DNA from: a virus
Taxonomy: Duplodnaviria > Heunggongvirae > Uroviricota > Caudoviricetes
DNA length: 4,210 nucleotides
Strand: one strand, 5' to 3'
Virus record (IMG/VR): IMGVR_UViG_2534681674_000013
Location: 1-4,210 of that record
Shown here in pieces: positions 3,824-3,900 of the stretch (its first letter is position 1; the number at the start of each line of letters is the position of its first letter). Made by a program: the position numbers and the translations under genes. The notes under the pieces were generated by a model. That model worked only from the letters and a program-made list of their open reading frames with translations. It was not told the DNA's origin and ran no database searches.

Positions 3824-3856
3824 CACAAAAACAACAGGCATCCCGGAGGATGCCTG
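3824..3856 (-). terminator. Intrinsic-terminator-like hairpin plus U-tract just upstream of the J RBS
   Basis: Perfect 9-bp GC-rich stem CAGGCATCC (3835-3843) / GGATGCCTG (3848-3856) with a 4-nt loop. On the minus strand it is followed immediately by UUGUUUUUGUG (complement of 3824-3834). An AU-rich tract precedes the hairpin on the minus strand. Confidence 0.55.
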
Positions 3857-3882
3857 TATCATGACTGAATAAAAATTCTGAA

Positions 3883-3900
3883 TATCTTCACATTTTCTGT
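3883..3900. repeat. Imperfect direct repeat, copy A (TATCTTCACATTTTCTGT)
   Basis: CATTTTCTGT at 3891-3900 is identical to 3981-3990. The flanking ATCTTCA (copy A) and ATCTT (copy B) extend the match with a 2-nt indel. The copies are 90 nt apart. Confidence 0.6.

What the first reader, a model, noticed from the sequence alone, without database searches (positions are those of the whole stretch)
3824..3890. sRNA-like 3' end architecture on the minus strand: AU-rich tract, GC hairpin, U-tract, only 31 nt before the J start
On the minus strand the sequence reads AUUCAGAAUUUUUAUUCAGUCAUGAUA, then CAGGCAUCC-UCCG-GGAUGCCUG, then UUGUUUUUGUG. An AU-rich single-stranded stretch followed by a strong terminator hairpin and U-tract is the typical Hfq-binding 3' module of enterobacterial sRNAs. 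It is also a terminator sitting inside an operon that in lambda is transcribed as one Q-antiterminated late transcript. Either it insulates J from upstream transcription in the lysogen, or it is the 3' end of a short minus-strand RNA made from a promoter within 3890-4000. The AU-rich tract contains a short internal repeat (plus-strand CTGAATA at 3864-3870 and 3878-3884).
Basis: partly seen in the sequence, partly recalled or inferred. Interest (0 to 1): 0.5.

Follow-up and report, generated by a model that had tools for sequence, protein, structure and literature searches.

The report
Conserved terminator hairpin just before J
The hairpin is a real transcription terminator that lambda-like phages keep just upstream of tail gene J, but the known Hfq-bound small RNA of this gap (PasB) is on the opposite strand with a different hairpin, so the finding is largely ordinary.

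Summary
On the minus strand, 3857-3834 forms a 10-bp GC-rich hairpin (-18.8 kcal/mol, z -5.5) followed by UGUUUUUGUG, ending 31 nt before the J start codon (ATG at 3792).

The sRNA interpretation is mostly not supported. The window is the I-J junction of an EHEC/Stx-type lambdoid prophage. Its 236-nt gap carries a published Hfq-dependent sRNA, PasB (EcOnc22/23/24). PasB lies on the opposite (+) strand, about 3945-4022, and ends at the other hairpin (3992-4015) beside the I stop codon.

The "AU-rich tract" is partly the upstream control region of the pasB promoter. It contains a palindromic, CRP-like box (TGTGA-N6-TCAGA, 3877-3892). This box sits at fixed spacing from a -35 (GTGGCA) and a -10 (TACAGT) in 266 copies.

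The hairpin itself is the local version of a stem-loop plus U-tract found just upstream of J in lambda, phage 21 (annotated "terminator" there), Gifsy-2 and mEpX2.

Most likely role: it stops ordinary RNA polymerase before J in lysogens and is read through by Q-modified polymerase. This role is inferred, not shown.

A minus-strand Hfq sRNA is not excluded (about 15%). Against it: Hfq crosslinking on that strand is about 1% of the PasB strand, and no conserved promoter exists.

The parts
3834..3857 (-). Terminator stem-loop ACAGGCAUCC-UCCG-GGAUGCCUGU. This is the finding's hairpin.
   Evidence: -18.8 kcal/mol, z -5.46. Conserved, with one covarying pair.
3824..3833 (-). U-tract UGUUUUUGUG. A minus-strand 3' end is expected at about 3826-3830.
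   Evidence: The T-run is kept in all hairpin-type variants.
3858..3876 (-). AU-rich linker AUUUUUAUUCAGUCAUGAU(A) between the box and the hairpin. It is conserved and travels with the hairpin. Its function is unassigned.
   Evidence: The breakpoints of the PPompW-type and tandem variants fall at its 5' edge.
3877..3892 (.). Palindromic CRP-like box TGTGA-AGATAT-TCAGA (read on the minus strand), centred at 3884.5, about -60.5 from the pasB start.
   Evidence: the only match in the window, 0.16 expected. The half-sites are invariant and the N6 spacer varies. The box lies a fixed 16 nt from the -35 in 266 copies. It is duplicated with the second antisense unit in L026.
3909..3938 (+). Inferred pasB promoter: -35 GTGGCA (3909-3914), 18-nt spacer, -10 TACAGT (3933-3938). 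A second -10-like TATCAT lies at 3917-3922.
   Evidence: One search shows the spacing conserved across 63 distinct sequences. It fits the 5' end reported for PasB in EPEC. No transcription start site (TSS) data are available for this window.
3945..4022 (+). Homologue of the Hfq-dependent sRNA PasB (EcOnc22/23/24), about 78 nt, antisense to the I-J mRNA.
   Evidence: Sakai coordinates and offset; EPEC coordinates and Northern probe; alignment to the window.
3992..4029 (+). pasB terminator: CCCGCAG-CCUUCGGUCA-CUGCGGG (3992-4015) followed by AUUUUUUCGCUUUU.
   Evidence: It corresponds to the PasB Northern probe AATCCCGCAGTGATCGCGGAGCT, which matches EPEC exactly and lines up with the homologous window hairpin, though the loops differ.
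4028..4210 (-). 3' end of the tail assembly gene I homologue. The stop codon TAA is at 4030-4028.
   Evidence: Annotation of identical DNA in O26:H11 strain 11368.
3793..3823 (-). J leader carrying the Shine-Dalgarno sequence (AAGGGUGAG). It is one of two alternative leader types joined right after the U-tract.
403..3792 (-). Host-specificity / tail-tip gene J (1129 aa).

Best explanation
Two different things were read as one module.

(1) Hairpin and U-tract, 3857-3824. This is a factor-independent terminator on the tail-gene strand. It is the local version of a stem-loop plus U-tract that lambdoid siphophages keep 15-35 nt upstream of J. RNA polymerase without the Q modification stops here. 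Such polymerase could come from read-through out of the tail genes, or from stray or divergent starts in the inserted pasB unit. J and the genes beyond it therefore stay untranscribed in the lysogen. Q-modified polymerase reads through during lytic growth. This role is inferred from anatomy, comparison and textbook lambda biology; it is not shown.

(2) The AU-rich tract just 5' of the hairpin. Its distal half (3877-3892) is a palindromic TGTGA-N6-TCAGA box. The box belongs to the promoter of the opposite-strand sRNA gene pasB, probably as a class I activator (CRP-like) site at about -60.5. PasB (window + strand, 3945-4022) is the Hfq-bound sRNA of this gap, and it terminates at the other hairpin, next to the I stop codon.

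The 236-nt gap is thus a lambda-type I-J junction (60 nt in lambda) into which an antisense sRNA moron (an extra, self-contained gene unit) was inserted upstream of the pre-existing pre-J terminator.
For: Terminator anatomy and stability.

Same feature in unrelated sequence at the same place:
- lambda: AAACCGCC-UGCG-GGCGGUUUUGUCAUUU
- phage 21: annotated "terminator" in OL657228.1
- Gifsy-2 and mEpX2
That is 4 of 5 other I-J junctions examined.

The PPompW-type spacer loses this hairpin but carries a different, bidirectional hairpin before J.

PasB identity, strand and terminator:
- EPEC coordinates 1466343-1466261 on the minus strand, between plus-strand I and J, and the probe sequence.
- EcOnc22/23/24 peaks lie in the I-J gaps of Sp15, Sp14 and Sp11 on the strand opposite I/J, once the 128-nt offset between NC_002695.1 and .2 is applied.

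The box belongs to the antisense promoter:
- The arrangement box / 16 nt / GTGGCA-like / 18 nt / TAnnnT / T-run is essentially invariant in spacing in 266 copies (63 distinct), although the spacers diverge.
- The same spacing occurs in an unrelated second antisense unit in L026, which has its own copy of the box.
- The box is retained where the hairpin is lost.

Against a minus-strand sRNA:
- CRAC reads on the I/J strand are about 1% of the other strand.
- No RIL-seq entry for the J-proximal gap.
- No conserved promoter facing the hairpin.

PasB is higher in LB than in DMEM. This is compatible with catabolite control, but only weakly.
Against: - No 3'-end or termination data for this site could be read, so termination and Q read-through rest on sequence and textbook lambda biology.
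- About a quarter of close J alleles sit behind a different (sodC-type) junction with no hairpin. The terminator is therefore not required for J.
- The simple scanner did not call the lambda hairpin a terminator.
- The 19-nt linker between box and hairpin is highly conserved, and this model leaves that unexplained.
- The box centre is at -60.5, not the canonical -61.5. Relative to an alternative TATAAT-type -10 it would be near -44, which fits neither CRP class.
- The box has one non-consensus core base. A single such match has about a 15% chance of occurring in a window this size.
- Low but reproducible Hfq crosslinking exists on the I/J strand in all five CRAC samples.
Confidence: 0.55

Rival explanations
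1. A short minus-strand RNA ends at this terminator and acts as an Hfq-binding sRNA. Its AU-rich stretch and U-tail would be the Hfq sites and the conserved linker the seed. It would come either from its own promoter in the spacer or from transcripts leaving gene I. A variant: I-derived transcripts ending here carry the exact complement of PasB and sponge it.
For: - The architecture is that of an sRNA 3' module.
- The linker AUUC(A/C)GUCAUGA(U/C)(A/G) just 5' of the hairpin is among the most conserved parts of the spacer and travels with the hairpin.
- Hfq-CRAC shows 100-240 reads on the I/J strand of this gap in all five samples.
- Tree et al. screened only sites antisense to, or more than 100 bp from, coding regions. 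A same-strand site 31-100 nt from J would have been filtered out.
Against: - No positionally conserved sigma-70-like promoter faces the hairpin in six variants.
- Reads on this strand are about 1% of the PasB strand, and their position within the gap is unknown.
- No RIL-seq entry for this part of the gap in EPEC.
- Tail genes are almost silent in lysogens: mean normalised RNA-seq counts (DESeq2 baseMean) of 5-15.
- In lytic growth Q-modified polymerase should ignore the terminator.
- Half of the proposed sRNA body is a palindromic DNA box tied to the opposite-strand promoter.
- Analogous hairpins precede J in phages with no such upstream sequence.
- No Rfam match.
Confidence: 0.15
2. An RNA stability or processing element of the late mRNA. 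During lytic growth the hairpin forms in the read-through transcript and blocks 3'-to-5' exonucleases. This would stabilise the upstream tail-gene segment, or define the J segment after cleavage (for example RNase III cutting of the PasB-mRNA duplex), and so set the ratio of J to the other tail proteins. Termination would be a side property.
For: - A stem-loop occurs at the same position in lambda, phage 21, Gifsy-2 and mEpX2, where Q-type antitermination should make a terminator irrelevant in lytic growth. That points to a function at the RNA level.
- The hairpin is very stable.
- PasB is perfectly complementary to the mRNA just upstream.
Against: - There is no direct evidence.
- The U-tract is conserved along with the stem in all examples. 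A terminator needs that; a decay barrier does not.
- sodC-type junctions express the same J allele without any such hairpin.
Confidence: 0.2
3. A conserved boundary ("linker") sequence. The block is kept similar between phages because it is where tail-fibre modules recombine. In this model neither the RNA hairpin nor the AU tract has a transcriptional role.
For: Mosaic joints fall exactly at the edges of the block:
- two alternative J leaders begin right after the U-tract;
- several promoter/PasB-body types begin right before the box;
- the PPompW and tandem joints fall between box and linker.
The block is more conserved than the functional PasB body.
Against: - Base pairing is preserved through a compensatory C-G to U-A change, and the loop varies freely. 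That indicates selection on structure.
- Non-homologous hairpins occupy the same position in other lambdoid phages.
- The box shows the signature of a protein-binding site: invariant half-sites with a variable spacer, at fixed distance from promoter elements.
Confidence: 0.1

Closest known systems
Stem-loop plus U-tract between tail genes I and J of lambda-like phages (lambda 15,445-15,504; annotated "terminator" at 15,649-15,673 in phage 21, OL657228.1)
   Same: Same position (15-35 nt upstream of J, same strand). Same architecture: a GC-rich stem, a 4-5 nt loop and a U-run. Same context inside a Q-antiterminated late operon.
   Different: No sequence homology: the stem is CAGGCAUCC here and CCGCC in lambda. 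Here the gap is 236 nt rather than 60 nt, because an antisense sRNA unit lies upstream. I found no experimental study of any of these hairpins.
PasB (Pearl Mizrahi et al. 2021, PMC8550237), also EcOnc22/23/24 (Tree et al. 2014, PMC4104026)
   Same: It lies in the same I-J spacer. It is an Hfq-dependent sRNA of about 83-85 nt with a hairpin and U-tract at its 3' end. The window contains a homologue at + 3945-4022.
   Different: It is on the opposite strand, uses a different hairpin (3992-4015) and does not overlap 3824-3890. The finding's AU tract lies upstream of its promoter, not inside the RNA.
Phage morons (Juhala et al. 2000): an extra gene with its own promoter and terminator inserted in the late operon
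   Same: The spacer is extra DNA relative to lambda, with its own promoter and terminator. The I-J junction also hosts other cargo, such as sodC and further sRNA units.
   Different: The cargo here is an antisense sRNA. The finding's hairpin is not the moron's own terminator; it is the pre-existing junction terminator.
Class I CRP-dependent promoters (lac type, site at -61.5)
   Same: The box matches TGTGA-N6-TCACA at 9 of 10 core bases, with AAA/TT flanks. It sits about 60 bp upstream of a start point that has weak -35 and -10 elements.
   Different: The centre is at -60.5 by my estimate. CRP dependence has not been tested. The transcription start is inferred from coverage-based 5' ends in other strains.

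Membership tests
Intrinsic (Rho-independent) terminator | GC-rich stem of at least 5 bp with a 3-8 nt loop | tested here: met
   10-bp stem, 6 G-C pairs, UCCG loop, -18.8 kcal/mol, z -5.46.
Intrinsic (Rho-independent) terminator | U-rich tract immediately 3' of the stem, on the strand that is transcribed | tested here: met
   UGUUUUUGUG on the I/J strand. The plus-strand reading lacks a U-tract.
Intrinsic (Rho-independent) terminator | RNA 3' ends or measured termination at the site | not testable with these tools
   Term-seq for strain Sakai exists (GSE143631, cited) but cannot be read here.
Hfq-dependent trans-acting sRNA (as a gene on the minus strand) | Own promoter, or a defined processing site giving a discrete 5' end | tested here: not met
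   No positionally conserved sigma-70-like promoter in six spacer variants. None called by the scanner. A sequence scan cannot exclude weak or non-sigma-70 promoters, or processing.
Hfq-dependent trans-acting sRNA (as a gene on the minus strand) | Terminator hairpin with a U-tail and an adjacent A/U-rich single strand | tested here: met
Hfq-dependent trans-acting sRNA (as a gene on the minus strand) | Hfq association and partner RNAs in vivo | tested here: inconclusive
   Published CRAC gives 100-240 reads on the I/J strand against 21,000-32,000 on the other strand; their position within the gap is unknown. EPEC RIL-seq text has no entry, but some files were cut when stored.
PasB / EcOnc22-24 sRNA | Transcribed antisense to I and J | tested here: not met
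   The finding is on the I/J strand. PasB is on the opposite strand.
PasB / EcOnc22-24 sRNA | 3' hairpin CCCGCAG...CUGCGGG beside the I stop codon (target of the Northern probe) | tested here: not met
   That hairpin is at 3992-4015. The finding's hairpin is CAGGCAUCC...GGAUGCCUG at 3834-3857.
CRP class I activator site (for the AU-rich tract at 3877-3892) | Match to TGTGA-N6-TCACA with conserved half-sites | tested here: met
   9 of 10 core bases; the only match in the window, 0.16 expected. Half-sites are almost invariant (one TCAGG among 131 hairpin-linked copies) and N6 varies.
CRP class I activator site (for the AU-rich tract at 3877-3892) | Centre near -61.5 (or -71.5, and so on) from the transcription start | tested here: inconclusive
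   -60.5 from the start inferred from the conserved TAnnnT -10 and the reported PasB 5' end. It would be about -44 if the TATAAT-like element is the real -10.
CRP class I activator site (for the AU-rich tract at 3877-3892) | cAMP-CRP binding and dependence | not testable with these tools
   Only indirect: PasB is higher in LB than in DMEM.
Any Rfam family | Covariance-model match | tested here: not met
   No hit in 3790-4030 even at E <= 10. No gathering-score hit in the I-J gap of the Sakai loci either.

The most novel reading that the evidence does not exclude
The pre-J terminator module is more than an insulator. Minus-strand transcripts that leave gene I in the lysogen would end here and give a stable, Hfq-bound RNA. 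That RNA carries the exact complement of PasB plus a conserved single-stranded linker. It would act as a built-in sponge or antidote for PasB, or as a trans-acting sRNA in its own right. The I-J junction would then be a two-strand RNA regulatory cassette shared by hundreds of pathogenic E. coli prophages.
Probability: 0.12. Interest if true: 0.55.

Novelty: new member of a known kind. Interest (0 to 1): 0.28.

Why it matters
On its own this is an ordinary intrinsic terminator at a gene boundary, and the sRNA of the locus is already published. Three points have some value.

1. Annotation. In these multi-copy prophage spacers (766 of 5,426 complete E. coli genomes, median 3 copies) the two hairpins belong to opposite strands. 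They should not be merged into one sRNA.

2. A stem-loop plus U-tract just before J recurs in non-homologous form across lambda, phage 21, Gifsy-2, mEpX2 and the Stx-phage group. This feature seems little discussed. It suggests selection to keep the host-range gene silent, or separately controlled, outside Q-driven transcription.

3. The conserved box / -35 / -10 arrangement gives a directly testable idea for how pasB, whose targets and regulation are unknown, is switched on. One candidate is catabolite control.

Tried and rejected
- **Rfam.** I searched the whole window at E <= 10. Nothing matched in the spacer, and PasB is not in Rfam.
- **AgvB/AsxR anti-sRNAs.** Considered because they are prophage Hfq sRNAs. 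They lie in the PR' moron site, not here.
- **HnrS (66 nt, multicopy; EcOnc10-12).** Its size would have fitted a minus-strand RNA ending at 3826, but it maps to other loci in Sp9, Sp10 and Sp12.
- **Small ORFs on the minus strand (3983-3888, 31 aa; 3922-3797, 41 aa).** Their start codons are missing from other variants (ATG becomes ACG; AATGATA becomes AATTATA) and indels shift the frames, so they are not coding.
- **Reading the EcOnc22 coordinates at face value.** That would have put the Hfq peak on the finding's hairpin. The AgvB anchor shows a +128 nt offset between NC_002695.1 and .2, which moves the peak to the PasB side and agrees with its reported strand.
- **Sigma-54 reading of GTGGCA.** Rejected because there is no GC at the -12 position.
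- **Sy et al. 2020.** No supplementary TSS or Term-seq tables are held.
- **Species-level genome scan.** It gave only E. albertii plus three tiny contigs from unlikely hosts, probably contamination.
- **Promoter facing the hairpin.** None was conserved.

Full report
**What the window is.** Genes run on the minus strand. A homologue of tail assembly gene I ends with TAA at 4030-4028. The host-specificity gene J starts with ATG at 3792 and runs to 403, encoding 1129 aa. Identical DNA is annotated "tail assembly protein" and "gpJ" in E. coli O26:H11 strain 11368. The 236-nt gap between I and J occurs in 129 phage records, almost all Stx-converting phages. It also occurs in 766 of 5,426 complete E. 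coli genomes, with a median of 3 and up to 10 copies per genome. A species-level scan found the flanking box only in E. albertii and three tiny, probably contaminant, contigs.

**The observation.** The described sequence is there. The stem-loop ACAGGCAUCC-UCCG-GGAUGCCUGU (3857-3834) folds at -18.8 kcal/mol, with z = -5.46 and 0 of 200 shuffles as stable. It is followed by UGUUUUUGUG and lies 31 nt from the J start. Read on the plus strand it has no U-tract, so it is a one-way terminator for the tail-gene strand. The CTGAATA repeat is real but sits at 3865-3871 and 3878-3884. The first copy is not conserved in relatives.

**The sRNA of this gap is on the other strand.** Three sRNAs in Tree et al. 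2014 are relevant: EcOnc22, EcOnc23 and EcOnc24. They are about 85 nt on Northern blots and destabilised without hfq. They are listed in prophages Sp15, Sp14 and Sp11 on the "+" strand.
- In the current Sakai record, the I and J genes of all three prophages are on the minus strand. The listed peaks fall in or near the I-J gaps.
- The paper used the older record, which is 128 nt shorter. The Rfam position of AgvB compared with its listed peak shows this offset already applies at 1.94 Mb.
- With the offset, the peak lies on the plus strand just 5' of the hairpin next to the I stop codon.

Pearl Mizrahi et al. 2021 independently mapped PasB in EPEC E2348/69. It is on the minus strand at 1466343-1466261 (83 nt), between I and J, which are on the plus strand there. 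The Northern probe AATCCCGCAGTGATCGCGGAGCT is the I-proximal hairpin. Aligning EPEC, Sakai and the window places the PasB homologue at window + 3945-4022, with its terminator at 3992-4015. PasB therefore does not overlap the finding. It is antisense to the I-J mRNA and uses the other hairpin. Neither the 2021 paper nor the 2026 Pas preprint mentions a promoter, CRP or the J-proximal hairpin.

**What the AU-rich tract is.** I compared 16 BLAST-derived spacers, 141 copies found through the box pattern, 131 found through the hairpin pattern and 80 found through the J protein.
- The block from GAAAAUGUGAAGA to the U-tract is the most conserved part of the gap. It stays conserved even where the PasB body and promoter region have diverged strongly.
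- The 5' half of the tract is a palindromic box, TGTGA-N6-TCAGA (3877-3892). Its half-sites are almost invariant (one TCAGG variant), while the six central bases vary among AGATAT, AGAAAT, AGAGTT, AGAATT, GGAAAT and ATAAAC.
- On the PasB strand the box is followed by 16 nt, a GTGGCA-like hexamer, 18 nt, a TAnnnT hexamer and a T-run. The 5' end reported for PasB comes next.
- This spacing holds in essentially all 266 copies (63 distinct sequences), although the intervening bases differ widely.

Two natural rearrangements separate the box from the hairpin.
- About a third of copies (PPompW type) keep the box but replace everything after TTTTAT with roughly 180 nt of other DNA.
- Locus L026 has two antisense units in tandem. 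Each has its own terminator and its own copy of the box at the same spacing, but there is only one J-proximal hairpin.

So the box belongs to the antisense promoter. It matches the CRP core at 9 of 10 positions. It is the only such match in the window, although about 15% of shuffled windows contain one. It is centred about 60.5 bp upstream of the inferred start, close to a class I position. PasB is more abundant in LB than in DMEM, which is compatible with this but far from proof.

An alternative TATAAT-like -10 lies 16 bp further upstream. In EPEC-type spacers it is near-consensus together with TTCACA. If that is the real -10, the box would sit near -44 and PasB would be 5'-processed. I cannot decide between these readings.

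**What the hairpin is.** The hairpin is conserved with 98.3% of cells paired. One pair switches C-G to U-A with U-G intermediates, and the loop varies. This is modest covariation.

The more telling result is positional. The 60-nt I-J gap of lambda contains AAACCGCC-UGCG-GGCGGUUUUGUCAUUU, 20 nt before J. Three other phages show the same arrangement:
- Phage 21 has nearly the same hairpin, and its GenBank record annotates it as a terminator.
- Gifsy-2 has GACCGCC-AUUAC-GGCGGUUUUGUUAUUU.
- mEpX2 has GGCCACC-UUCG-GGUGGCUUUUUUAU.

Only Salmonella phage S107, with a 9-nt gap, has none. The PPompW-type spacer, which lost this hairpin, carries a different bidirectional one before J.

A terminator-like stem-loop just before J is thus a recurrent feature of lambdoid tail operons. 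The window's hairpin is its local version, and the pasB unit lies between the I stop codon and it. The junction is also a general cargo site: 19-24 of about 75 close J alleles have an antisense sodC gene there instead, with neither box nor hairpin. This shows that the hairpin is not essential for J.

**Mechanism, and how sure I am.**
- Shown by sequence and comparison: the terminator architecture, its strand, its conservation, the identity and strand of PasB, and the link between the box and the pasB promoter.
- Inferred: unmodified RNA polymerase terminates here, keeping J and downstream genes silent in lysogens, while Q-modified polymerase reads through. This follows from the established behaviour of lambda Q antitermination, not from data on this site.
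- Overall I put this at 0.55. Within it, "real intrinsic terminator" is about 0.9, "not PasB" is above 0.95, "box is part of the pasB promoter" is about 0.7 and "the factor is CRP" is about 0.4.

**Rivals.**
- *A minus-strand Hfq sRNA or PasB sponge (0.15).* The conserved linker and the low but reproducible CRAC reads on the I/J strand keep it alive. The screening filter of Tree et al. would also have hidden such a site. Against it: no conserved promoter, reads at about 1% of the PasB strand, no RIL-seq entry and near-silent tail genes in lysogens.
- *An mRNA stability or processing role in the read-through late transcript (0.2).* This is compatible with everything seen and may coexist with termination.
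- *A purely recombinational "linker" (0.1).* It fits the mosaic joints at the block's edges. It does not fit the preserved pairing, the non-homologous hairpins in other phages or the box's fixed spacing.

**Verdict.** The insulation alternative is the better reading and the sRNA headline is not supported. The feature is an ordinary kind of element, an intrinsic terminator at a phage gene boundary, next to an already published sRNA gene on the other strand. Interest is low to moderate.

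Noticed in passing
window 3945-4022 (+), terminator 3992-4029: An intact homologue of the published Hfq sRNA PasB (EcOnc22/23/24) lies antisense to the I-J mRNA. It ends 6 nt from the I stop codon. The stretch AUCUUCAUUU just 5' of its terminator is conserved. The family has no Rfam model, and RefSeq records leave it unannotated.
   Followed up: yes
window 3877-3938 (+): A promoter architecture is conserved in 266 copies: box TCTGA-N6-TCACA, 16 nt, GTGGCA, 18 nt, TACAGT. 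A second -10-like TATCAT (3917-3922) lies inside the spacer. In EPEC-type spacers this second element becomes a near-consensus TTCACA-16-TATAAT promoter. That promoter would predict a PasB precursor about 15 nt longer than reported.
   Followed up: partly
L026 9810-10240 (IMG/VR UViG_2531839666_000033): Two antisense sRNA-like units lie in tandem between I and J. The second has an unrelated body and its own terminator (CUCCCG...CGGGAG plus a U-run), but the same box / -35 / -10 spacing. It may be an undescribed paralogue of PasB.
   Followed up: partly
L019 575-755 (phage PPompW_132418), about a third of box-containing copies: About 180 nt of other DNA replaces the pre-J hairpin. It contains a very stable bidirectional terminator (AAACCCCGGUAUC-UGCU-GAUACCGGGGUUU, -29 kcal/mol on either strand) and a promoter-like site facing away from J. 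This may be a third antisense RNA unit.
   Followed up: partly
L020 and L208-L211 (sodC-type junction): In about a quarter of phages with nearly the same J allele, the I-J gap instead holds an antisense Cu/Zn superoxide dismutase gene (sodC). Only the first ~34 nt of the query after position 4040 (the end of I plus the start of the gap) are shared. The I-J junction is therefore a hot spot for antisense-oriented cargo.
   Followed up: partly
window 366-385 (-), just after the J stop codon at 403-405: A second intrinsic-terminator-like hairpin (GGGCGUCA-GAAA-UGACGCCU followed by UUUUUUAUUGC) lies directly downstream of J on the tail-gene strand. The stretch 357-418 gives a weak, sub-threshold Rfam match to STnc50 (19.7 bits, E = 8.1).
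   Followed up: no
NC_002695.1 versus NC_002695.2 (Sakai chromosome): Coordinates in Tree et al. 2014 Table S2 are about 128 nt lower than in the current RefSeq record from at least 1.94 Mb onward. Used at face value, they place the EcOnc22-24 peaks on the wrong hairpin.
   Followed up: yes
L144 96-155 (lambda 15,445-15,504); L287 357-381 (phage 21); L288 and L290: Lambda, phage 21, Gifsy-2 and mEpX2 each have a non-homologous GC stem-loop with a U-run 15-25 nt upstream of J. Only the phage 21 record annotates it as a terminator.
   Followed up: partly
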